In this document: in pieces, positions 310 to 23,392 of the stretch
How positions within the stretch are numbered: position 1 is the first letter of the stretch
Layout of the letters: each line of letters starts with the position of its first letter
Assembly: GCA_944392665.1 (NCBI GenBank)
Contig: CALXXJ010000001.1
Span: 96,754 to 160,753, forward strand
Origin: an uncultured Clostridia bacterium
Lineage (GTDB): Bacteria; Bacillota; Clostridia; TANB77; CAG-508
Length of the DNA: 64,000 nt
Direction of reading: 5' to 3'
Translations under genes and position numbers: made by a program
Notes under the pieces: model-generated
Seen by the model: the letters and a program-made list of their open reading frames with translations, nothing else
The model's database searches: none
What the model was told of the DNA's origin: nothing

Positions 310-339
310 TAACATTCCTTTCTTTTTGGTATCCAATTT

Positions 340-420
340 GGGACGTTTCTGTTTGGGACAAACTCCCCGTCCTCTATGACAACCTAAAATTCAAAAAAAG
401 GGAAAAATGAGTCCGTCCCC
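340..420. repeat. Dispersed intergenic repeat, copy A (GGGACGTTTCTGTTTGGGACA plus inverted partial copies CCCCGTCC and GTCCGTCCCC)
   Basis: Read directly in the secG-rnr intergenic region. Same core as the copies at 4390, 6703, 18950 and 23363. Confidence 0.8.
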
Positions 421-2668: not shown

Positions 2669-4351
2669 CTAGAATATTGTTATTCTAAATCCAATACTCC
2701 AATATGTTTGTGTACTAGTATTATTGCTTCTAGTATTTACAGTTAGTTCAGAAGAAGCACTGCTCTCATATGATCCACCTCTTATAACACATGGTTGAGA
2801 ACCTATATTTGAATTTTCCAAAGTCCATTCCCATACATTTCCTGCTAAGTCTAATATATTTTGTTTTCCAAAAGCAGTATTGGCTCCTGTTGATAACAAT
2901 ACAGATCTTGCTGAAGTTTTATCATAAGGTGCTTGTAGCCATTGTGAACCATTATTTAGTGAATATTGCGCACTTTCATTTACTATATTGTATATACTTG
3001 ACTGATAATTTCCCCAAGATGTACTATTATTTATTAGTTGAGATTGAATTGTTCCAATCGCTGTTCCCTGTGCTACTGCCTTTGCCTCTATATATTTTTG
3101 TACTAAATCCCATTGAATACCAAATAATAGACTTCCTGAATATCCATTTGTACTTGTCTTACTTGCCAATGTTTGTGCTTGACTACATGTTACCCAATTG
3201 ATTGGATATTGATTTGGTTGAGACATTGGAACTAAATCTGCAATAGATGCACTACCATTATTTCTCTTTGTATTTGTTCCAGCTTCATATCTTGATATAT
3301 AGAAACCTCCATGTTGATAAACACTCTTTAACATTTTTTGCTTTAACTCAGTATATTCACTACTTGATAATCCTGTTGTGTCTTCTGAATAATATGTATC
3401 ACTTGCTGAAGTTCCATTTCTATATGTTGAAGCATAAGTATGTAAATCATTTTCAATTTTTTGATATTCTTCATCTGTAAAATCTTTTATACTAATACCA
3501 GCTGTTGGATATACACTTGCAAGTTTTGGTACTTCTATCCAAACATACTCATTTCCAGAAGAATCTTGAATAACTAATCCTGTTTCTAATGTTGTGCCTT
3601 CTACTTGTGTGAAATCAGAATTTGGTAAATATGGTCTCGTACCAGGTCCATTTGGTAGATTTCCTGTTCCTCCTATAATTTCATCATTTGCTTGATATGA
3701 ATCAATACTTAACGTGATATCCATTGCTGAAGTGGCATCTGGATTGTCTATAAAATATTTTCCTACTGTATATCCCCACTCTGTATCTAATTCATCATTA
3801 TCCCCTGGCCATTTAGCTGTCACTTCTAAGTATGCATCATCCTGTGCTGCTACTTGCAGAGAATGTTCGATTTCCAGTGTGAATGGAAATTTTTCAGGAT
3901 CATTGATGATAATTCCTTTTGACAAGAGTTCTCCTGTTTCTGGATCTGACTCTAATGTTGGTTCTGCTATCATTATATAATTTTCTGTTGTAGGTTGTTC
4001 TCCTTCTGGTACTAATTCATAAGAGACTCCAACAATCGATATTGCTTGTATTTGATAGCTTAAATCTACTAATGCTTCTCCATTATTTAAAATATCTACT
4101 TTTACAACTTGATCTTCCATCTGTGGATATAATGTAGGAAATTCAATTCCAATTGGATTTTCCTTTTTTTCACCATTTATATAATATTCCATATCCCATG
4201 CTGCCACATGTATGTTTAAGCTTGGATTTAATATTTTTGTATAGGCAAACCATGCAAATGTGGTCATAATAAGGGTAAAAATAACGATTAAAAATTTTCT
4301 AAATTGATTCTTTTCGTTTGATTTTCTATGTTTACGCAATATATTGCTCAT
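2669..4351 (-). CDS. Secreted or anchored protein: TasA-class N-terminal signal (TFAWF) plus C-terminal FGE/SUMF1 (formylglycine-generating-enzyme-like) domain
   Basis: N-terminus KFLIVIFTLIMTTFAWFAYTK. The following region is homologous to the 9394..10098 product (AAWDMEYYING...LYPQMED versus TPWDVRYYVDD...LYPGMPD). The C-terminus has GGFYISRYEAG, LAGNVWEWTLE, RGGSY and IGFRI, which are FGE-sulfatase family signatures. Confidence 0.8.
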   Translation of the reverse strand: MSNILRKHRKSNEKNQFRKFLIVIFTLIMTTFAWFAYTKILNPSLNIHVAAWDMEYYINGEKKENPIGIEFPTLYPQMEDQVVKVDILNNGEALVDLSYQIQAISIVGVSYELVPEGEQPTTENYIMIAEPTLESDPETGELLSKGIIINDPEKFPFTLEIEHSLQVAAQDDAYLEVTAKWPGDNDELDTEWGYTVGKYFIDNPDATSAMDITLSIDSYQANDEIIGGTGNLPNGPGTRPYLPNSDFTQVEGTTLETGLVIQDSSGNEYVWIEVPKLASVYPTAGISIKDFTDEEYQKIENDLHTYASTYRNGTSASDTYYSEDTTGLSSSEYTELKQKMLKSVYQHGGFYISRYEAGTNTKRNNGSASIADLVPMSQPNQYPINWVTCSQAQTLASKTSTNGYSGSLLFGIQWDLVQKYIEAKAVAQGTAIGTIQSQLINNSTSWGNYQSSIYNIVNESAQYSLNNGSQWLQAPYDKTSARSVLLSTGANTAFGKQNILDLAGNVWEWTLENSNIGSQPCVIRGGSYESSASSELTVNTRSNNTSTQTYWSIGFRITIF

Positions 4352-4389: not shown

Positions 4390-4429
4390 CTTTTTGTCCT
4401 TTTGGGGACGTTTCTTTTTGGGACATTTT
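4390..4429. repeat. Dispersed repeat, copy B (left arm of a perfect 40-bp inverted pair)
   Basis: CTTTTTGTCCTTTTGGGGACGTTTCTTTTTGGGACATTTT. Its exact reverse complement lies at 6703..6742. Confidence 0.9.
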
Positions 4430-4436
4430 ATAAAAT

Positions 4437-5342
4437 CTACATTTCTTTTTCTATTTTTTCTATTTCTTCTCTTGATAATTTTGTTACTTTCATGATTGTT
4501 TCAATTGGCATTTTTTCTTTTAACATTGATTTTGCTATTTCTTTTTTGTTTTGTTCAATTCCTTGTTCTCTTCCTATTTCAATTCCTTCTTTTTTACCTT
4601 TCTTTATTCCGTGTTCTTCTCCACTCTTAAATCCAATATCTTTTCCTGCATCAAATATTGAGTTTTCATCCCTTATTGCCTTCTCTCTCAAAAATGCTAT
4701 TCTTCTTTCTTCTTCATCTCCTGTTAAGTATTCATATTCTTCTTGTGCCTTTTTGATTTCTTTATTTTTACTCATAGCATTTTTTACCTCCTTCTCATCT
4801 ATTTGACTAATAAAATCCATCCACATATCTAACTTTGTTTTCATATCTTTTCTTTGTTTCTTAAATTTAGGAATTTGTATAAAATGGATTTCTATTTTAT
4901 CTGTTAATATTTTATATAAATATTCTCTTCTTAGTCTTGCAATTTCATGATATGGACCTTCGTCAAATTCGTTATAATCTAATATATTAATAGCTATTAC
5001 CTTTTTTATTTCTTTATAGTCCGCACCTTTTTGTAAAACATTATAATATAATCCTGACCAATAAAATAGTGTTCTTTCAATCATATTATATCGATTTATA
5101 ATTTGAATTTCAATATTTACAATTGTCTCTTCATCCACTTTCGCTTTTAAATCTAAAATTCCCAATTTATTACTTTCTAATTGTCTTTCTAAATTCGTAT
5201 CTGCTATTACTTCAATACTTTTTATTTTAATTTGTAAAATTGAATTCAATAAATCTTTTAATATACTTTCATTTCCCTTTTTAGCAAATATTTTCTTAAA
5301 TATGTAATCATTTGTTACTTTTAATTGTGTCTCTCTATTCAA
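4437..5342 (-). CDS. Rpn/YhgA-like PD-(D/E)xK recombination-promoting nuclease / putative transposase
   Basis: N-terminus NDYIFKKIFAKKGNESILKDLLNSIL...LGILDLKAKVDEETIVNIEIQ is characteristic of the Rpn (PDDEXK_2, TIGR01784-type) family. The C-terminal half is a charged helical tail. TTG start at 5342 with AGGAGG 7 nt upstream. Confidence 0.7.
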   Translation of the reverse strand: MNRETQLKVTNDYIFKKIFAKKGNESILKDLLNSILQIKIKSIEVIADTNLERQLESNKLGILDLKAKVDEETIVNIEIQIINRYNMIERTLFYWSGLYYNVLQKGADYKEIKKVIAINILDYNEFDEGPYHEIARLRREYLYKILTDKIEIHFIQIPKFKKQRKDMKTKLDMWMDFISQIDEKEVKNAMSKNKEIKKAQEEYEYLTGDEEERRIAFLREKAIRDENSIFDAGKDIGFKSGEEHGIKKGKKEGIEIGREQGIEQNKKEIAKSMLKEKMPIETIMKVTKLSREEIEKIEKEM

Positions 5343-5897
5343 TAAATTTCCTCCTTTATTTTACTAAATTTTTCTTTTTTCTTCAACTCTTTCTTATTAT
5401 TTTTTGAAATTTTATAAGACTTTTTGTTGTACCTCAATATAAGAACAGTAAACGTGTCCAATCGTTCAAATTCTAAATAATAGTGGATTTTTTATTGAGT
5501 AAAATTTGATATATTGATATAAAGCTAATGAAATTTAAAATCATTCTAAATATAATAAAAAACTAATAATAGAATACAAAATTAATTAATAACTAAACAT
5601 TTTTTATCTATGTATATATATAAACACATTCTTCTAATTTTTTCAACAACATATGCACACTTTTCGTCGCAAATTTCGACAAAATAGTTTTATTCTTAAT
5701 GTCCAGATAAAAATGTCTCAAAGAGATACAAATCTCAATAAGACATATAATTTTTTGAAAAACTATATACTTTTTCAAAAAATTAGTGTATAATTAAATA
5801 AATATTAGAATACTATAATATTGTAGATAGATATTCTACTAGGTCTGAAATAGTTTACTAAATTAGGACCTGACCCGAGTTGATGCCAAGCGTCAAC

Positions 5898-5925
5898 AAA
5901 AGCCATTCATACGAATGGCTTTTTT
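5898..5925. terminator. Rho-independent terminator (bidirectional potential)
   Basis: AAA-AGCCATTC-atac-GAATGGCT-TTTTT. It lies 17 nt downstream of the minus-strand DUF3800 stop. It could also end a plus-strand transcript. Confidence 0.6.
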
Positions 5926-5941
5926 ATGTTTTCTTCTCACT

Positions 5942-6685
5942 TTATATTCTTTTATTTTTTAACAAATTTATAATATGTCTAAAATCTTTACCTCTAAAGA
6001 AAAATTTTTCAGCATTAGTAAATGGAATATTATTTTTCCTTTTATAATCTAGTTTATCAATTACAGTTAGCATATCTGAAACTTGAAATAATCTTTTCTC
6101 TGTGTGATTAAATTTTATTCTTCTTTCTACTTTTGCATTAGTAACGAATAAAGTATCTAATATAGTCGCTAATGTCTCTTGTCCATTATCATAGTAAATA
6201 ACAATTTTATCAAATGCATCTAGGTAGTCTTGATTATTACTTATAAAATTACTAATATCTCTTGCTAATATGATATTTAATTGCATTTTTTTATTTATAT
6301 ATCTTTTATCTACTATAACAGTTCTTATTTTAACTTTTACTCTAATTGAAAAATAAAATATTGCCCAAAATATGCTTTTTCTTTTTTCAAAGTTGAAATG
6401 AGAGTAATCACCTCTTTTGGCAATAAGATATGCTAAATGAATCATACCATTGTAATGAAGAGCACCTAATTTTTTATTTAGATATTTTAATTCATTTTCT
6501 ATTGAATTAGAACTTTCATGTAATGTAAAAGAAACTGCATATAAATCTGAACTTCCTTTCACAAAGCCAAAATCTCCACTTTCATCTACAAATATATTTA
6601 ATCGTTTTATTCTTGATATGTCATATATAAGAATATTGTAAAGAGAAACGTTATAAAGAAACCAAAAATGTCCCCAATTGGACAC
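5942..6685 (-). CDS. DUF3800 family protein (start uncertain)
   Basis: NIFVDESGDFG is the DUF3800 N-terminal signature. The first ~25 codons of the tracked ORF (to 6757) are encoded by the dispersed repeat (VLLGTFLFGTF), so they are probably not coding. The only in-frame canonical start closer to DESG is the GTG at 6685, which has a weak RBS. The true N-terminus may be disrupted. Confidence 0.5.
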   Translation of the reverse strand: MSNWGHFWFLYNVSLYNILIYDISRIKRLNIFVDESGDFGFVKGSSDLYAVSFTLHESSNSIENELKYLNKKLGALHYNGMIHLAYLIAKRGDYSHFNFEKRKSIFWAIFYFSIRVKVKIRTVIVDKRYINKKMQLNIILARDISNFISNNQDYLDAFDKIVIYYDNGQETLATILDTLFVTNAKVERRIKFNHTEKRLFQVSDMLTVIDKLDYKRKNNIPFTNAEKFFFRGKDFRHIINLLKNKRI

Positions 6686-6742
6686 AACTCTCAATAAGAC
6701 AAAAAATGTCCCAAAAAGAAACGTCCCCAAAAGGACAAAAAG
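6665..6742. repeat. Dispersed repeat, copy C (partial unit 6665..6684 plus right arm 6703..6742 of the 40-bp inverted pair)
   Basis: AAAATGTCCCCAATTGGACA ... AAAATGTCCCAAAAAGAAACGTCCCCAAAAGGACAAAAAG. Confidence 0.9.
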
Positions 6743-6782
6743 AACCATAATTACCAAACTATTTGTTTGATTATTATGGTTC
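6733..6782 (-). terminator. Rho-independent terminator after the major TasA-like gene
   Basis: Minus-strand reading: GAACCATAAT..(CAAAC-aaata-GTTTG)..ATTATGGTTC followed by TTTTT. Confidence 0.5.
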
Positions 6783-6831
6783 TTCTTATTATATTTATCA
6801 TCTCATTCTATATTTTCATATTTTTGGGATA

Positions 6832-8112
6832 TTAGCCACCTACACCATCTGTTGCTGAACCTGGTTTGCTTAATCCAACATCAATTGTTAATCCTCCACC
6901 TAGTGAAGCATAGTTGATACAGTCAACGTCTTGTCCTTCTAGCCATACATACATTCTCATATGGATATATTTACCTGGTGCAATTGCAAAATCAGTTGTA
7001 CCATCTTTAACACTCTTTAATTGAATTGGATTGTCTGCTATGATACCTGTATTAGGTGTTTTTACTGTATTTTGTTTTACTAATCCAGCTGCTGCTGCTG
7101 CTGTATCCCAATTATATATATCAGCTATAGTTTGTGAAACAGATGTTGCTGTTAAAGCATATGTAGGTACTGGATCATCTGCATCAAATCTACTTGTACC
7201 TGATGTTAAACTTGTTCTATCTGTTGATGATAATGTTAATTTGTTGTTATTTTGTACTATGTAATCAACATGTGCTGCATATGTTGTAATTGTTGGACTT
7301 GTTCCAACTTGTGCACCACTTGCATTTGGTTCCCAAATAGCTACATCTGTGATTAAACGATCAGCACCAGTAGTCGCTTGTAATATATCTGCTTGACTTG
7401 GTGTATTATTAACTAATGTCGTATCCTCTAAATCTGAATCCTCATCAAATATAGCAAATGCTACTCTTAATGTGTTTTGTAAACCTGTTGACTCTCTTGA
7501 TGATTCATTTAAATTAATTGATGAATTGCTTTCAATTCTAAGTAAATCTTTTGTATTTCCTGTAATCGCTTCTGTTGAAGAAGAGTTTTGTAGGAAGAAG
7601 TCAATTGCATAATATCCTGAATCAGCATCAGCTGCTAATTTTGCAACATTAGTTAATTTCTTTCCTGACTCAACATCTCCTCTATACATATTTAAATCAT
7701 TTAATCCAATACCTTCATTGCTTTGTGCTGTTGTAGAAGCTGGTAATAATTCACTTGGTACTAAATTTGTACGTGCTTGATAAGTATACTCTCCACCTGC
7801 ACCTTGTTTCCAAGGATTTACTAATGATACCATATCATCATCTGTCCATCCATTGTTTGTATTGGTTTGTGCAAAATATGCTGATGCATTATCTGTCAAA
7901 TCAATTTCGTTTGCCCAGTTTAAAGCATCTAATGAAATTTGTAGACCTTCAGCTACGTTTACTTGTCCTTCTAGTCCACCTAATGTTACGTTTCTCTGTG
8001 TAGAGAACCACGCATAGGTTGCTACAATCAATAAGATTGCTGTAAATGCTACTAATAAAATTAATGCATTTAATCTTTTTCTTGAGTTTCTTTGAATGTT
8101 TTCTTCTCTCAT
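6832..8112 (-). CDS. TasA/camelysin-class secreted fibre-subunit candidate (SipW-cognate signal), paralogue 1
   Basis: N-terminus ALILLVAFTAILLIVATYAWFSTQRNVTLGG. Good RBS (AAGGGAG). Clear paralogue of 61080..62216, sharing ATYAWFSTQRNV, TGLQNT.RVAFA, DVAIWEPN, DYIVQNNNK, QTIADIY.WD and WLEGQDVDCINYAS. Has its own terminator. Confidence 0.85.
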   Translation of the reverse strand: MREENIQRNSRKRLNALILLVAFTAILLIVATYAWFSTQRNVTLGGLEGQVNVAEGLQISLDALNWANEIDLTDNASAYFAQTNTNNGWTDDDMVSLVNPWKQGAGGEYTYQARTNLVPSELLPASTTAQSNEGIGLNDLNMYRGDVESGKKLTNVAKLAADADSGYYAIDFFLQNSSSTEAITGNTKDLLRIESNSSINLNESSRESTGLQNTLRVAFAIFDEDSDLEDTTLVNNTPSQADILQATTGADRLITDVAIWEPNASGAQVGTSPTITTYAAHVDYIVQNNNKLTLSSTDRTSLTSGTSRFDADDPVPTYALTATSVSQTIADIYNWDTAAAAAGLVKQNTVKTPNTGIIADNPIQLKSVKDGTTDFAIAPGKYIHMRMYVWLEGQDVDCINYASLGGGLTIDVGLSKPGSATDGVGG

Positions 8113-15098: not shown

Positions 15099-16220
15099 TT
15101 ATTTTAACCTCACTTCTTTTGCTTGTATCATATATTTTTCAATTCGTTCTTTAAATCTATCTTCTATAGGTTTTAAAGAAATTAATTTTTTCGTTTTCAT
15201 CACCAAGATTTTTTCTGAAATTAATTTATTCAACTCTTTCTCTGTCATATCTGGATTTAATTCTATAATTCTTTCTATCATGGCATCTGTTAATTGTTTT
15301 GCCAACTTATTATCTTCAACACCTGATTTTGCTTTTCCTTTTAATGTATTACTATCATCTGTCTTTCTAAAAATAGAATGTAACAAAAATATGTCTTCAT
15401 CTACTAATTCCTTTACAATTCCTTTTTCTTCATATTGACTCGTCTCATTAACTGTTTTATCATTTAATTCCATTTGCTCACTTAAATAGTTCCATAATTT
15501 TACAGCATATTGAAAGTTAACATTTTTTAACAAAACATTTGTCATTTTTAATGGTGCTTTTACATATGTTGCTTTTTTGGCAACCAATGTTTGATAAACC
15601 TCAGTTTGTTTTAACATTTTTAAAGATCTTTCTATACTTGCTATTCTCTCTGCTGTTTTTTCTGTCTTTGTAATCCCTGTTATCCTTTCAGACTCATATT
15701 GCATCTTTACATTAATTTTTTCTTTTCCTAATTTGACTTCTGCTTGATAATCTGCTTTTTGATGATTTTTCCCTTTATATTCTTCATCATCTTGTTTTTT
15801 TCTTAAATACATATAATCTTCAATTAGTTTTATTAATGTATATAAAAATCTATTTTCATAATTAAGAAAAGTTTCTTCCTTATAGGCATTTAAAATCTTT
15901 TTAGGTGTTACTTCTCCACTTTTTTGATTAAATCTATCTACTAGATTTACATGTTTTGATAAATGTTTTACACTGTCTACTGTTACTTTTTTAATTAATT
16001 CTATTTTGATAATTTCTTCTTCTGTAACAATATTTTTTATTTCTTTCGTTAATGCTTTTTCTAAATATGGAATCGTAAATTCAACCATATCCATCCATTC
16101 ATCATTTTCTACAATATGGCTTCTATCTACATCCATCATTAACTTAGAATCAATTTTACTAAGAAACTTTGTTGAATTTTCTTTTTCCATATTGGCTAAT
16201 TTCACAATATTTAAGTCCAT
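15099..16220 (-). CDS. Cytoplasmic protein with possible McrC/DUF2357-like N-terminal region and no recognisable nuclease motif
   Basis: ETFLNYENRFLYTLIKLIEDY resembles the (D)TxENRF(L/V)K motif of McrC/DUF2357 partners of McrB-type AAA+ proteins. It sits directly downstream of the McrB-like gene. The ATG at 16220 (GGAGGG RBS) is preferred over the tracked TTG at 16241, which lies inside the palindrome. Confidence 0.6.
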   Translation of the reverse strand: MDLNIVKLANMEKENSTKFLSKIDSKLMMDVDRSHIVENDEWMDMVEFTIPYLEKALTKEIKNIVTEEEIIKIELIKKVTVDSVKHLSKHVNLVDRFNQKSGEVTPKKILNAYKEETFLNYENRFLYTLIKLIEDYMYLRKKQDDEEYKGKNHQKADYQAEVKLGKEKINVKMQYESERITGITKTEKTAERIASIERSLKMLKQTEVYQTLVAKKATYVKAPLKMTNVLLKNVNFQYAVKLWNYLSEQMELNDKTVNETSQYEEKGIVKELVDEDIFLLHSIFRKTDDSNTLKGKAKSGVEDNKLAKQLTDAMIERIIELNPDMTEKELNKLISEKILVMKTKKLISLKPIEDRFKERIEKYMIQAKEVRLK

Positions 16221-16233
16221 TTTTCCCTCCGAG

Positions 16234-16308
16234 GTTGCCAAAGGGGACGGGTTGATTTGGCAACTTTTTTTATGTAAGTTGCCAAATCAACCCGTCCCCT
16301 TTGGCAAC
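16234..16308. promoter_or_regulatory. Perfect 32-bp inverted repeat (75-nt hairpin) filling the intergenic gap
   Basis: GTTGCCAAAGGGGACGGGTTGATTTGGCAACT (16234..16265), an 11-nt loop, then the exact reverse complement (16277..16308). Contains the GGGGACG core of the dispersed repeat. Confidence 0.85.
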
Positions 16309-16310
16309 TT

Positions 16311-17864
16311 TTAAGACATCTTTTTAAGTCTTAATAAGAATTCTATACATTCACTCATTTTGCCTTTTCCAAAGTTTTTATCTAAAAACTCAATATAACC
16401 ATCAATTTCATCTCTAATTAAAGTTAAGTTTAATCCTTCAAATTTTCTTAATACTTTTTTAGCCATGAAATAGTCTACTGCTTCTGTTTCGTCTCCTCCG
16501 CAAGCTACATATACTGGCACAAATTTTCTCATATGTTTTACAATACGGTTACCAAATGCAACTCTAAAGTGTTTGATTGTATAATCATCCATGTCTTCTA
16601 TCTTTTTCAAAGTTGCTGGTGATATTGCATAATCTGTCATTGCTTTTTCAAATAAACCGTTTAAGTATGAGTAGTTTACGTCAAGAGCTTCCACATCATC
16701 TGGTTCAAATGCAACACCTTTTTCATTAATATCAATAGGCATTGCTCTATCATATACCTTATCTGTTACCATGAATGTTGAGTCGTCATTGTTAATTGTT
16801 CCGATATACCATGCATTTGGTGGAATCTGCAACTTTCCTTTGATTAATTTCTTTGGATCAGTTGGCCATGAACTTTGTACGATTTCAATTTTCCAATCTT
16901 TTGTACTGTGCATTTCTAGAATTGATAACATTTCTGCAAAATAATATTCCACACGCGCTAAGTTCATCTCGTCTAGGATAACTGTATAGATTTCATCTGT
17001 ATATCCTGCTTCATATAAATATGCTAAAAAGTCTGTTTCATTAAATTTCTTGGTGAACTCATTTAAGTATCCAAAAATATCTGTTCTATCTCTCCAAGAT
17101 GGTTGCACAGATGCAACACATGAAGGATGTTTTACAAAGTTACCCCATGCAAGAGATATAGATGTTTTACCAGTACCAGAAATACCTTGTAAAATAACAA
17201 GTTTAGTTGATGCAATTGCTGATACAAATAGTCTTATCATCTTTTCACTATAATATAGTTTTAACTTGCTTGCAGCAAAATTTCTAAACATATAACAAAA
17301 TTCTGGTAATGTGAAATTATTATGATAGTCTTTTTGTTTATATTTCGCAAATTCTTCATCTAATGCTGTTAACTTAGAGAACCTACTTTGTGTATTAGGA
17401 TCAATTTGTTCTTCATTATTTGCTTCTGATTGTGCGGCAGCAAGTGCAGCTTTATCTATACCTGCACTGATACCATTTGGATTTACACCCAATTCTGGTG
17501 ACTTCATATTTAACAATTTTAGTTTTTCGTCTACTAATTCTTCTACTTGTCCATTTAAGGTATCTATTTGTTTTAATAATTCTTCTTGGTCAATAATCTT
17601 TTTTCTCCATTTCATATGTCTTTTTAAGAAAAAGATTATAATTCCAACAATACCTCCAATAACGATTAGCATAAGAATAATTGCTAAACCTGTTAAAAAC
17701 CATTCTGAGACTTGAAAGTCATTTGCATAATGTTGGATAATTCCCCAATATCTTGGTATATTAAATATATTTACAATCCCATTCCAAAGACCACTGAATA
17801 TATCTCCAAATCCAGAAAAGAATTGACTTAAAAATTCAAATAAAAATCTTCCATATGTTTCCAT
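16311..17864 (-). CDS. Membrane-anchored McrB-like (AAA_5/COG1401-type) AAA+ NTPase
   Basis: N-terminal hydrophobic segments (FLTGLAIILMLIVIGGIVGIIIFFL) and a coiled coil (EELLKQIDTLNGQVEELVDEKLKLL). Then Walker A LQGISGTGKTS, SVQPSWRDRTDIFGY, Walker B plus the McrB signature VILDEMNLARVEYYFAEMLSILE, and IPPNAWYIGTINNDDSTFMVTDKVYDRA. AGGAG RBS. Confidence 0.75.
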   Translation of the reverse strand: METYGRFLFEFLSQFFSGFGDIFSGLWNGIVNIFNIPRYWGIIQHYANDFQVSEWFLTGLAIILMLIVIGGIVGIIIFFLKRHMKWRKKIIDQEELLKQIDTLNGQVEELVDEKLKLLNMKSPELGVNPNGISAGIDKAALAAAQSEANNEEQIDPNTQSRFSKLTALDEEFAKYKQKDYHNNFTLPEFCYMFRNFAASKLKLYYSEKMIRLFVSAIASTKLVILQGISGTGKTSISLAWGNFVKHPSCVASVQPSWRDRTDIFGYLNEFTKKFNETDFLAYLYEAGYTDEIYTVILDEMNLARVEYYFAEMLSILEMHSTKDWKIEIVQSSWPTDPKKLIKGKLQIPPNAWYIGTINNDDSTFMVTDKVYDRAMPIDINEKGVAFEPDDVEALDVNYSYLNGLFEKAMTDYAISPATLKKIEDMDDYTIKHFRVAFGNRIVKHMRKFVPVYVACGGDETEAVDYFMAKKVLRKFEGLNLTLIRDEIDGYIEFLDKNFGKGKMSECIEFLLRLKKMS

Positions 17865-17884: not shown

Positions 17885-18931
17885 TTATTTTAGTATTACA
17901 TTATCAAAAATTGCTTTGTTACTCTTTATTTCTTTATATAATGCCAATTTTTGTGGTACAATCACCATTTTAAACATTTTTAATTTTTCTACATCTTCTA
18001 TACTTTTTACTGTATTATCTAATGTAATCGTAAAATTGTAACCTTTTTTTGTATATCCTAAAATACTTTTTTGATTTTTTATATAATCAGAGTACATAAT
18101 ATTCAAATGTATTTTATCTTGCAATTCTTGATTTCCTAGAATTGACAATATACTGTCTAATTTTTGTTTCTTTTTAAATAGTGTACTTGCAAATTCTGCA
18201 ATATATGTATCATCAAAATTTCCATTTACGATATCTGAAATGACAACAACACTTAATAATATATATTCTACTTGCAATTTATCTTCTGCAACAATTCCTT
18301 CATTATATACTTTTTCTATCGCTGCTTCACTATATTGCATAGGCATTTTTACCTTTTGCTCTAATGTCACAAAATATACATCATCTTTCCCTTTACTATT
18401 TTCAAATTGTAAAGCAAATTCATCTGTATCAAATTTATCTAAAAATACTTCTTTTTCAATCATATCTTTTTTGATTTCTTCATACAATTTTTTTTCAGTA
18501 CTTTGTGAAATTTCTATTTTAAATAACGCACTTGCTGTTTGTATCATTCTACTAATAATTTCTTTTATATTATCAATTGACTTAAAATTTTCTACATTTC
18601 TAACATTATCAAAAAATAAAATATATGCAAACAATTCCTTTAAATTATGAATTTTATTTAATTGTTCTTGCTTTTCATTTAAGTTTTGAGATTCTTCTTC
18701 ACATTTTTTCATTAGAATATCTTCTTTATATTCTAATTCTTCTAATATTCTTAAGTAAAATGCTCTTGCAGGTGTATCTGTATTTTGAATATTATAATAT
18801 CTAGCATTAATATATGTTTTTAAATATTCATTTACTAAATTTTCATCATATTGTTTATCCAACATGGTTTTCATGTATTTTTTTATTTTCTTTTCTGTAA
18901 ATGTTATATATGTATCCATTAAATTGTTCAT
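17885..18931 (-). CDS. Cytoplasmic protein, unknown function
   Basis: No TM or signal. The ATG at 18931 (AGGAGG 6 nt upstream; MNNLMDTYITF) is preferred. The tracked start at 18985 would translate the dispersed repeat. Confidence 0.65.
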   Translation of the reverse strand: MNNLMDTYITFTEKKIKKYMKTMLDKQYDENLVNEYLKTYINARYYNIQNTDTPARAFYLRILEELEYKEDILMKKCEEESQNLNEKQEQLNKIHNLKELFAYILFFDNVRNVENFKSIDNIKEIISRMIQTASALFKIEISQSTEKKLYEEIKKDMIEKEVFLDKFDTDEFALQFENSKGKDDVYFVTLEQKVKMPMQYSEAAIEKVYNEGIVAEDKLQVEYILLSVVVISDIVNGNFDDTYIAEFASTLFKKKQKLDSILSILGNQELQDKIHLNIMYSDYIKNQKSILGYTKKGYNFTITLDNTVKSIEDVEKLKMFKMVIVPQKLALYKEIKSNKAIFDNVILK

Positions 18932-18940
18932 TTCTACCTC

Positions 18941-19010
18941 CTGTTTGTCCATTGGGGACGTTTCTGTTTGGTCAATTTTGTCCATCGGTACCTGGTCCGT
19001 TTTGTCCCAT
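18941..19010. repeat. Dispersed repeat, copy D
   Basis: GTCCATTGGGGACGTTTCTGTTTGGTCAATTTTGTCCATCGGTACCTGGTCCGTTTTGTCCC. The 22-nt core at 18950..18971 is the exact reverse complement of 23363..23384. Confidence 0.85.
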
Positions 19011-23322: not shown

Positions 23323-23392
23323 AAAATGTCCAAATGGAAACGTCCCCATTGGACAAAATGTCCCAAACAGAAACGTCCCCAATGGGACATTT
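23323..23392. repeat. Dispersed repeat, copy E (two tandem ~33-nt units, opposite orientation to B and D)
   Basis: AAAATGTCCAAATGGAAACGTCCCCATTGGACAAAATGTCCCAAACAGAAACGTCCCCAATGGGACATTT. Confidence 0.9.

What the first reader, a model, noticed from the sequence alone, without database searches (positions are those of the whole stretch)
4390..6742. Perfect 40-bp inverted repeats bracket a 2.35-kb Rpn-nuclease + DUF3800 cassette
**Seen in the sequence.**
- CTTTTTGTCCTTTTGGGGACGTTTCTTTTTGGGACATTTT at 4390..4429 is exactly reverse-complemented at 6703..6742.
- The interval contains only an Rpn/YhgA-like PD-(D/E)xK protein, a 560-bp AT-rich non-coding stretch and a DUF3800 gene.
- The DUF3800 gene's apparent 5' end is made of the repeat.
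- The cassette interrupts the run of TasA-class genes (2669..4351 on one side, 6832..8112 on the other).

**Established knowledge.** Rpn proteins promote RecA-independent recombination and were first annotated as putative transposases.

**Inference.** This is a mobile or invertible insertion that uses the dispersed repeat as its terminal inverted repeats. Inversion would swap which flanking gene the repeat or leader faces.
Basis: partly seen in the sequence, partly recalled or inferred. Interest (0 to 1): 0.65.

Follow-up and report, generated by a model that had tools for sequence, protein, structure and literature searches.

The report
REP repeats bracketing an rpn locus
The perfect 40-bp inverted repeats are two copies of a common intergenic repeat (a REP/REPIN family with its own RAYT transposase elsewhere) that sit on either side of an old, vertically inherited rpn defence gene and a recently captured DUF3800 gene fragment. 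I found no sign that this is a jumping or flipping cassette.

Summary
4390-4429 and 6703-6742 are a perfect 40-bp inverted repeat around an Rpn (PDDEXK_2) gene, a non-coding stretch and a DUF3800 ORF.

The arms are not private ends of a cassette. They are copies of a 35-nt dispersed repeat, TGTCCnnTTGGGGACGTTTCTnTTTGGGACATTTT, found in many uncultured gut Clostridia. It usually occurs as short inverted doublets: 43 pairs in +/- order and none in -/+ order. In related genomes the same repeat flanks a Y1/HUH RAYT-like transposase. I therefore read it as a REP/REPIN-RAYT system.

- **rpn is old at this site.** It occupies the same position and orientation in at least four related lineages. It is absent from two outgroups, whose gap ends at the outer edges of the arms, and is secondarily deleted in one lineage.
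- **The arms vary between lineages.** They are perfect here, 85% complementary in one relative, absent on one side in another, and a different but matched pair in a fourth.
- **DUF3800 is a recent addition.** It is a strain-variable fragment copied from a serine-recombinase element, and it has lost its start codon.
- **No mobility seen.** There was no inverted orientation, second location or target-site duplication, and no recombinase among the window ORFs scanned against Pfam.

Verdict: an ordinary REP-bracketed accessory locus.

The parts
4390..4429 (+). Left arm of the 40-bp inverted repeat. It is one REP unit (core 4395-4429, orientation R on the + strand) plus 5 T-rich bases. It lies between the rpn stop codon (4437) and the ribosome-binding site of the 560-aa gene (start 4351).
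   Evidence: nhmmer E=7e-10 to a profile of 188 repeat units
6703..6742 (-). Right arm of the inverted repeat, one REP unit. It lies just downstream of the terminator hairpin of the 426-aa gene.
4437..5342 (-). rpn gene, 301 aa. It has a PD-(D/E)xK nuclease domain and a C-terminal HTH_Rpn_C region. Orthologues differ in the number of GIEI/GKEQ four-residue repeats.
   Evidence: (precomputed PF27070)
5343..5730 (-). rpn upstream region (leader, promoter, ribosome-binding site). It is conserved with relatives that lack DUF3800 and contains the box TTTTGTCGAAATTTGCGACGAAAAGT (about 5659-5686) and degenerate REP-like units.
5753..5931 (.). Structured non-coding segment that arrived with the DUF3800 fragment. 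It is 85.6% identical to L154 4769-4947. It includes a bidirectional terminator hairpin at 5898-5923 and, folded as + strand RNA (5803-5930), four hairpins.
5942..6611 (-). DUF3800 coding remnant, 86.9% nucleotide identity to L154 3009-3685. The native GTG start and the promoter are lost in this allele. It is absent from some strains of the same species.
6612..6702 (-). Variable segment just inside the right arm, made of degenerate REP-like units (half unit at 6670-6684) and the recombination junction ...AAGAATAAAACGAT. Strain L001 has a different 207-bp segment here.
6737..6787 (-). Terminator hairpin of the upstream 426-aa gene. It is ancestral (also present at the empty site) and overlaps the outer 6 bases of the right arm.
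   Evidence: (pair I25)
332..360 (+). Another copy of the same REP unit, in the secG-rnr spacer. A remnant of a doublet's inner motif lies at 396-432.
   Evidence: (L024/L074 type)
18949..18978 (+). Another REP unit, directly upstream of the ribosome-binding site of the gene whose likely start is the MNNLMDTY... methionine about 18 codons into the 17885..18985 ORF.
23323..23389 (-). Two tandem REP units just after the stop codon of the 9437-aa gene.
16234..16308 (.). Short doublet of a sister repeat variant (GTTGCCAAAGGGGACGGGTTGATTTGGCAAC): perfect 33-nt arms with a 9-nt spacer.
   Evidence: (L030 4876-4971)

Best explanation
**What the arms are (shown by comparison).** They are two copies of a 35-nt REP-type repeat native to this lineage of uncultured gut Clostridia. 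The repeat normally forms short inverted doublets (REPIN-like). By comparison with related genomes, it is associated with a single-copy RAYT-type Y1/HUH transposase that is itself flanked by the same repeat in the same polarity.

**What lies between them.**
- An rpn gene that entered the spacer between the 426-aa and 560-aa genes before at least four related lineages diverged. It replaced that spacer's promoter and has been inherited vertically since.
- A fragment of about 0.86 kb holding DUF3800 and a structured 3' region. It was captured recently from a serine-recombinase element.

**History (inferred).**
- The DUF3800 fragment joined by illegitimate recombination at a 12-nt microhomology, AATAAAACGATT. 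It is already decaying, because its start codon is lost.
- The arms are near-consensus REP copies that come, go and are homogenised at the borders. The perfect 40/40 match here differs from close relatives' right-hand arm by as little as one base in the repeat core.

**Function (inferred).**
- In the mRNA sense, the upstream arm acts like other REP units placed after gene ends: a weak hairpin followed by a U-run. The downstream arm sits in the rpn-560 intercistronic spacer.
- The pair is not an active transposon end or an inversion switch.
- rpn itself most likely works as an RpnL/RpnS-type toxic nuclease with a built-in antitoxin for phage defence.
For: **Repeat family**
- 190 hits in 112 loci (827 kb) from many Clostridia MAGs. 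There are 43 +/- pairs within 400 bp and no -/+ pairs.
- Conservation falls sharply outside TGTCC...ACATTTT.
- Single units facing 'R' sit a median of 3 nt after a stop codon, often TAA|TGTCC. Units facing 'R-prime' sit a median of 32 nt before a start codon.

**RAYT link**
- In L038 and L106, inverted repeats of 40 nt (90%) and 56 nt (95%) of this family flank a 266-aa ORF. It matches Pfam Y1_Tnp at E=5e-17, and its best NCBIfam match is the REP-associated tyrosine transposase. It carries the HVHLV and RYIHQNP motifs.
- A 72%-identical copy lies in L109, from the species representative closest to the window.

**History of the locus**
- Empty sites: L142-144 and L162.
- Branching order from three flanking proteins.
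- rpn orthologues at the same locus in L032, L133 and L125.
- A remnant left by rpn deletion in L159-161.
- Arm states across lineages.

**DUF3800**
- 86-87% nucleotide identity to L154-158, where it sits beside a large serine recombinase.
- Strains with an identical Rpn but no DUF3800: L164 and L168.
- Start codon lost.

**Rpn identity**
- Profile matches and four-residue repeat variation, as described in PMC10400941.
Against: - The gap relative to the empty site ends exactly at the outer edges of the two arms. That is also what a one-step insertion of arm-rpn-arm would leave.
- In L125 the two arms are 95% alike but only about 71% like the window's arms. Some process keeps the arms matched, and I cannot say which.
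- A distant rpn (38% identity, L061) at an unrelated locus also has the repeat downstream and a partial copy upstream.
- No RAYT lies in the window itself.
- A single REP unit folds only weakly (-2 to -3 kcal/mol), and one sub-variant lacks the small hairpin.
- The RAYT scores 73.9 bits against NCBIfam's cut-off of 80.
Confidence: 0.7

Rival explanations
1. REPIN with cargo. The arm-rpn-arm interval was, or still is, a unit that the RAYT can move in trans, in the same way RAYT genes and short doublets carry the same ends. This would be how rpn reached this site.
For: - The gap limits coincide with the outer ends of the arms.
- The polarity matches that of all 43 doublets and of the RAYT flanks.
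- L061 has a distant rpn between a partial and a full repeat at another locus.
- L027 has a membrane-protein gene between a +/- pair 1.07 kb apart.
- PMC10400941 states that rpn genes are not autonomous and probably hitch-hike.
Against: - There is one locus only in more than 40 contigs.
- Inheritance is vertical across lineages.
- L133 keeps rpn without the downstream arm.
- Paralogues L129, L147 and L149 have no such flanks.
- About a quarter of intergenic spacers in the first 23 kb of the window carry the repeat, so flanking on both sides by chance is not rare.
Confidence: 0.15
2. Invertible segment. Recombination between the perfect 40-bp arms flips the 2.3-kb interval and switches expression of the downstream 560-aa gene, which lost its own promoter when rpn arrived.
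For: - The inverted repeat is perfect.
- The ancestral promoter of the 560-aa gene is missing in rpn-bearing lineages.
- Several short contigs end in or just inside the right arm, and one Logan contig (L172) runs exactly from arm to arm.
Against: - All 8 fetched contigs spanning both arms, and all related species, show one orientation.
- No tyrosine or serine recombinase was found among the window ORFs I scanned against Pfam.
- The contig breaks have simpler explanations, which I infer rather than checked against the assembly settings: a 40-bp repeat longer than a short assembly k-mer, and co-existing strain variants just inside the arm.
- The arms are ordinary REP copies, and relatives have imperfect or missing arms.
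Confidence: 0.06
3. Rpn is the enzyme of the repeat, and the cassette is the autonomous copy of a transposon whose miniature derivatives are the short doublets.
For: - Rpn is annotated as a putative transposase.
- The cassette has the same ends and polarity as the doublets.
- rpn is flanked by matched arms in three lineages and in L061.
Against: - A RAYT with the same flanks exists in three related genomes.
- Rpn loci sampled without reference to the repeat lack the flanks.
- There is no target-site duplication and no second copy.
- PMC10400941 found no evidence that Rpn proteins transpose and notes there is no known autonomous PD-(D/E)xK transposase.
Confidence: 0.04

Closest known systems
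REP/REPIN elements with their RAYT (REP-associated tyrosine transposase), as described in Pseudomonas and E. coli (PMC3116915, PMC3337134, PMC5581495)
   Same: - A short repeat confined to intergenic DNA, with many copies.
- Inverted doublets with a fixed polarity.
- A Y1/HUH transposase gene flanked by the repeat in inverted orientation and sitting at a conserved chromosomal site.
- No target-site duplication.
- Units placed within a few bases of stop codons.
   Different: - The host is an uncultured, low-GC gut Clostridia lineage.
- The single unit is only a weak palindrome.
- Doublet spacers are very heterogeneous in length (about 10-320 bp) and sequence.
- The RAYT carries a C-terminal extension of about 120 aa.
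- In this window the pair brackets rpn and DUF3800, not the RAYT.
Rpn (YhgA-like) recombination-promoting nucleases, RpnL/RpnS toxin-antitoxin defence genes (PMC5350276, PMC10400941)
   Same: - A PDDEXK_2 nuclease domain with conserved D64, E78 and Q80.
- An HTH_Rpn_C tail.
- Four-residue repeat number varying between close relatives.
- Patchy presence or absence between lineages.
   Different: Those papers report that rpn genes lack flanking inverted repeats. Here the gene sits between matched inverted repeats, but these belong to the host's REP family.
Invertible promoter and gene switches of Clostridioides difficile and Bacteroides (from my own knowledge)
   Same: Inverted repeats bracket a segment upstream of a surface-protein gene.
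   Different: Those switches rely on a tyrosine or serine recombinase, and both orientations are found in populations. Neither feature was seen here.
Miniature inverted-repeat elements such as Correia elements of Neisseria (from my own knowledge)
   Same: Short intergenic elements with terminal inverted repeats, often co-transcribed with neighbouring genes.
   Different: Correia elements make a TA duplication and have conserved interiors. These doublets show no duplication and have unrelated interiors.

Membership tests
REP/REPIN-RAYT system | Short repeat, many copies, confined to intergenic DNA | tested here: met
The first 23.4 kb of the window holds 7 full or near-full units, one half unit and a sister-variant doublet. 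15 hits fell inside crude ORF calls, which is expected because the unit has no stop codon in its sense frames.
REP/REPIN-RAYT system | Two units in inverted orientation with a short spacer (REPIN doublet), fixed polarity | tested here: met
   43 +/- pairs 47-335 bp apart (start to start) and no -/+ pairs.
REP/REPIN-RAYT system | Each unit is itself an imperfect palindrome with a conserved head tetranucleotide | tested here: inconclusive
   Only a 4-5 bp stem (GTCC/GGAC), -1.9 to -2.9 kcal/mol, z from -0.5 to -2.6. A CGTC is present. The GGGACAATTGGGGAC sub-variant lacks the stem.
REP/REPIN-RAYT system | A Y1/HUH (RAYT) gene flanked by the repeat in inverted orientation | tested here: met
   L038 and L106 have Pfam Y1_Tnp at E=5e-17 and 1.5e-17, with flanking inverted repeats of 40 nt (90%) and 56 nt (95%). 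L109, the closest species representative, has the repeat on one side before the contig ends. For the L038 protein, NCBIfam REP_Tyr_transpos scores 73.9 bits, just under its cut-off of 80. No RAYT lies in the window itself.
REP/REPIN-RAYT system | RAYT cuts and joins the repeat as single-stranded DNA | not testable with these tools
   This needs biochemistry.
Autonomous transposon or insertion sequence with terminal inverted repeats | Encodes its own transposase | tested here: not met
   The only enzymes inside are Rpn (a PD-(D/E)xK nuclease) and a DUF3800 remnant. PMC10400941 finds no evidence that Rpn transposes.
Autonomous transposon or insertion sequence with terminal inverted repeats | Target-site duplication at the ends | tested here: not met
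   The flanks tatattcc| and |aaccataa share nothing. No duplication was seen at the 43 doublets either.
Autonomous transposon or insertion sequence with terminal inverted repeats | Copies at different genomic sites | tested here: not met
   All contigs with the same or a near-identical Rpn carry the same neighbours. Orthologues in relatives are at the same site.
Invertible DNA switch | Both orientations present in populations | tested here: not met
   8 contigs from 8 samples span both arms in one orientation, and related species agree. Short-read assemblies are a weak test for rare flips.
Invertible DNA switch | A tyrosine or serine recombinase acting on the repeats | tested here: not met
   None was found among the window ORFs I scanned against Pfam; the two giant genes and several small ORFs were not scanned. 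One acting from elsewhere in the genome cannot be excluded.
Rpn (RpnL/RpnS) family | PDDEXK_2 or Transposase_31 nuclease domain plus a C-terminal helical/HTH domain with variable four-residue repeats | tested here: met
   PF12784 at E=1e-52, TIGR01784 at E=3e-47, PF27070 precomputed. Orthologues of 281-341 aa differ by GIEI/GKEQ units.
Rpn (RpnL/RpnS) family | Separate translation of the small C-terminal antitoxin; anti-phage activity | not tested
   The only hint is that L125 carries the C-terminal domain as a separate 95-aa ORF.
DUF3800 | Match to PF12686 above the curated cut-off, with an intact gene | tested here: inconclusive
   The match is 26.6 bits against a cut-off of 21. The native GTG start is lost in the window allele, and codon 3 is TAA in the L001 allele.

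The most novel reading that the evidence does not exclude
Pairs of this REP repeat in +/- order act as carriers. Whatever lies between them (rpn here and in L061, the RAYT itself, a membrane-protein gene in L027) can be moved by the RAYT in trans. This would give non-autonomous defence genes such as rpn a vehicle. The arm-to-arm gap relative to the empty site would then be the footprint of one such event.
Probability: 0.12. Interest if true: 0.7.

Novelty: new member of a known kind. Interest (0 to 1): 0.3.

Why it matters
- It removes a false lead. A perfect inverted repeat around a 'putative transposase' looks like a transposon or a switch, but here it is a by-product of a repeat-rich genome.
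- It documents a REPIN-RAYT-like system in uncultured low-GC gut Clostridia, whereas the systems I cite were characterised mainly in Proteobacteria.
- It gives a dated, stepwise history of a small defence locus: empty site, then rpn insertion, then repeat turnover at the borders, then capture and decay of a foreign gene fragment.
- If the cargo reading were true, it would suggest how rpn genes move.

Tried and rejected
- **Rfam.** The whole window at gathering threshold gave only a tRNA. The interval searched at E<=5 gave only sub-threshold noise.
- **PADLOC.** Nothing meaningful for Rpn or DUF3800. The only hit was a weak 15-bit 'putative invertase' match to the Rpn C-terminal helix, which I regard as spurious.
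- **PDB sequence search with the RAYT.** No hit at E<=0.01.
- **Metagenome scan with an Rpn alignment.** Only 9 confirmed loci came back. Two are the same locus, and the more distant ones have no repeat flanks.
- **Rpn as the enzyme of the repeat.** I considered this seriously when the short doublets appeared. I dropped it once RAYT genes with the same flanks were found and unbiased Rpn paralogues proved unflanked.
- **Contig breaks at the right arm as a sign of inversion.** Rejected. Variants just inside the arm co-exist (L001, L007, L008 and L164 types). I also infer, without having checked the assembly settings, that the 40-bp repeat exceeds the k-mer used for the Logan contigs.
Full report
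**1. Observation**

The 40-mer CTTTTTGTCCTTTTGGGGACGTTTCTTTTTGGGACATTTT at 4390-4429 is exactly reverse-complemented at 6703-6742. No pair appeared in 100 dinucleotide shuffles. All genes in this part of the window run on the minus strand.

Between the arms lie:
- rpn at 4437-5342 (Pfam PDDEXK_2 E=1e-52; NCBIfam Rpn family E=3e-47);
- about 600 bp of AT-rich non-coding DNA;
- a DUF3800 ORF (26.6 bits against a cut-off of 21).

GC content is 19-27% inside the interval and 30-36% in the flanks. There is no target-site duplication.

**2. The arms belong to a dispersed repeat**

A profile built from 188 units finds copies at 332-360, 4396-4428, 6704-6736, 18949-18978, 23323-23352 and 23355-23389. 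It also finds a half unit at 6670-6684 and a sister variant at 16234-16308. All are intergenic.

Almost all are MAGs of uncultured Clostridia from chicken, wild-animal, mouse, goat and human gut samples.

In those loci (827 kb, 190 hits):
- 43 neighbouring pairs within 400 bp are in +/- order, and none are in -/+ order.
- The consensus is TGTCCaaTTGGGGACGTTTCTgTTTGGgAcATTTT.
- Conservation drops from 80-100% to about 40% immediately outside this 35-mer.

The doublets are 65-353 bp long, show no target duplication, and have unrelated interiors. Some share a roughly 277-bp nested palindrome, and some hold terminator-like hairpins.

Single units show a clear placement rule:
- Units reading TGTCC...ACATTTT in the direction of transcription sit a median of 3 nt after the upstream stop codon, very often as TAA|TGTCC.
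- Units in the opposite sense sit a median of 32 nt before the next start codon.

**3. The gene that goes with the repeat is a RAYT, not Rpn**

In L038 and L106 a +/- pair about 1 kb apart encloses a 266-aa ORF:
- It matches Pfam Y1_Tnp (E=5e-17 and 1.5e-17).
- For the L038 protein, the best NCBIfam match is the REP-associated tyrosine transposase (73.9 bits, cut-off 80).
- It carries HVHLV and RYIHQNP motifs.
- The flanking inverted repeats are 40 nt (90%) and 56 nt (95%).

A 72%-identical copy lies in L109. That contig belongs to Chicken_24_mag_33, the species representative closest to the window at 93-98% nucleotide identity over most of the shared locus (85% in the most diverged block). 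It has the repeat on its upstream side and sits at the orthologous position.

This is the defining layout of REP/REPIN-RAYT systems (PMC3116915, PMC3337134). PMC5581495 notes that RAYT Group 1 also occurs in Clostridia.

Caveat: a single unit is only a weak hairpin.

**4. History of the locus**

Identities of three flanking proteins give the branching order ((((window, L001), L032), L133), L125), L142. The states seen are:

| Lineage | State of the site |
|---|---|
| L142-144 and L162 (outgroups) | Empty site. Upstream gene, terminator hairpin, about 42 bp with a TTGTAC-N17-TAAAAT promoter, ribosome-binding site, 559-aa gene. No rpn and no repeat. |
| Window compared with the empty site | The difference starts right after the terminator's T-run and ends at GGAATATACAAATGA. 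These are the outer ends of the two arms. |
| L125 | rpn present, same position and orientation (83% protein identity). Arms are 39 nt and 95% complementary, with a different sequence (by my count 25 of 35 core positions match the window's). |
| L133 | rpn present (91%). No downstream arm. |
| L032 and L146 | rpn present (89%). Arms 85% complementary. |
| L159-161 | rpn deleted, leaving its leader, ribosome-binding site and first codons. |
| L164 | Same species as the window. Arms differ at 2-3 positions. |

Within the repeat core, the window's downstream arm differs from that of L032 by one base, at the single variable position of the core (TTTCTnTTT in the repeat's own orientation): the window has T there on both arms, while L032's downstream arm has G.

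So rpn is an old insertion inherited vertically, while the repeats at its borders turn over. It is missing only from the outgroups and, by secondary deletion, from L159-161.

**5. DUF3800 is a recent passenger**

- **Source.** Window 6611-5935 and 5931-5753 are 86.9% and 85.6% identical to L154-158. There the 225-aa gene follows a 596-aa serine recombinase, and a 354-aa gene separates it from the structured 3' region.
- **Strain variation.** L164 and L168, which carry an identical Rpn protein, lack the fragment.
- **Two alleles exist:**
  - L001 keeps donor upstream sequence, including a promoter, but has TAA at codon 3.
  - The window type has replaced the promoter and start through a junction at the 12-nt microhomology AATAAAACGATT.
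- **Reading.** The apparent start 'made of the repeat' is read-through of a stop-free repeat. The gene is probably decaying.

**6. Tests of mobility and inversion**

- Eight fetched contigs from eight samples span both arms. All have the window's orientation and neighbours.
- Every contig carrying the same or a near-identical Rpn shows the same locus.
- No recombinase domain was found among the window ORFs I scanned against Pfam.
- Some contigs break in or just inside the right arm.
  - Four different sequence variants co-exist just inside that arm.
  - I also infer, without having checked the assembly settings, that a 40-bp repeat longer than a short assembly k-mer causes such breaks. Logan contig L172 runs exactly from arm to arm.
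- Rpn paralogues found by protein similarity alone (L129, L147, L149) have no such flanks.
- L061, a 38%-identical rpn found through the repeat scan, has a full unit downstream and a partial one upstream.

**7. What rpn is**

- Orthologues of 281-341 aa differ by GIEI/GKEQ units in the C-terminal helix.
- This is the hypervariable four-residue repeat of RpnL/RpnS toxin-antitoxin defence genes described in PMC10400941.
- That paper also reports that rpn genes lack flanking inverted repeats and are unlikely to be transposases.

**8. Conclusion**

The perfect inverted repeat is real, but it consists of two copies of the host's REP family. The interval is a composite of an old rpn insertion and a recent, decaying DUF3800 fragment.

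- **Best explanation (0.7):** a REP-bracketed accessory locus with no current mobility or inversion.
- **Main rival (0.15):** the repeat pair once served as a RAYT-mobilisable frame that carried rpn into the site.
- **Other rivals:** inversion (0.06) and Rpn-driven transposition (0.04) are poorly supported.

On novelty, this is a new member of known kinds: a REPIN-RAYT system in uncultured Clostridia, and an Rpn defence gene.

Noticed in passing
window 5803-5930 (+ strand); homologue in L154 4769-4947: A 128-nt stretch folds into four hairpins ending in a terminator (-39.2 kcal/mol, z=-6.0 on the + strand; z=-3.3 on the minus strand). Compared with the L154 copy, one hairpin shows two compensatory pair changes by my reading of the alignment (G-C to A-U and U-A to C-G). 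It may be a small RNA convergent with DUF3800. It has no Rfam match.
   Followed up: partly
loci L013-L124 (for example L048 5335, L060 1213, L066 6037, L118 5555): Single repeat units in the sense orientation abut the upstream stop codon, a median of 3 nt away and very often as TAA|TGTCC. This suggests either a target preference for TAA or selection linked to translation termination.
   Followed up: partly
window 18949-18978 and 23323-23389: A second large +/- repeat frame (36 nt, 92% complementary) encloses 4.3 kb holding seven small genes, among them two ORFs I took to be SipW-type signal peptidases (not checked against profiles). I could not test whether this block is an insertion in relatives.
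   Followed up: no
L125 4522-4560 and 6373-6411: In this related lineage, rpn is flanked by a matched pair (95% complementary) of a different sequence, TGTCGCATTAGGTTCGTTTGTCTATGCGACATTTT. So the two arms have changed together. The variant was found only at this locus among the fetched loci.
   Followed up: partly
L125 5001-5993 and 6041-6328: Here rpn is split into a 330-aa nuclease ORF and a separate 95-aa HTH_Rpn_C ORF. This looks like a free-standing version of the small antitoxin part.
   Followed up: no
L161 1-2100 (also L159, L160): In this lineage rpn is deleted down to its leader and first codons. An inverted duplicate of the 426-aa-type gene lies convergent with a fragment of another copy. 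A different palindromic element of about 250 bp fills the spacer.
   Followed up: no
window 15099-17864: The 517-aa protein matches the PADLOC candidate defence family PDC-M26A (E=3e-36), and its neighbour carries DUF2357. Together they may form a defence pair. The sister-variant repeat doublet at 16234-16308 sits between the two genes.
   Followed up: no
window 23404-59245: Two giant ORFs of 9437 and 2547 aa fill more than half the window. They contain many 87-nt (29-residue) leucine-rich-type repeats and longer repeats of about 3.6 kb.
   Followed up: no
window 6832-8112 and 2669-4351: The genes flanking the interval matched no TasA or camelysin profile. The 560-aa protein has only a weak FGE-sulfatase domain match. 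The 'TasA-class' label rests only on my reading of an N-terminal anchor with a YAWF-like motif and on the neighbouring SipW-type peptidases.
   Followed up: partly
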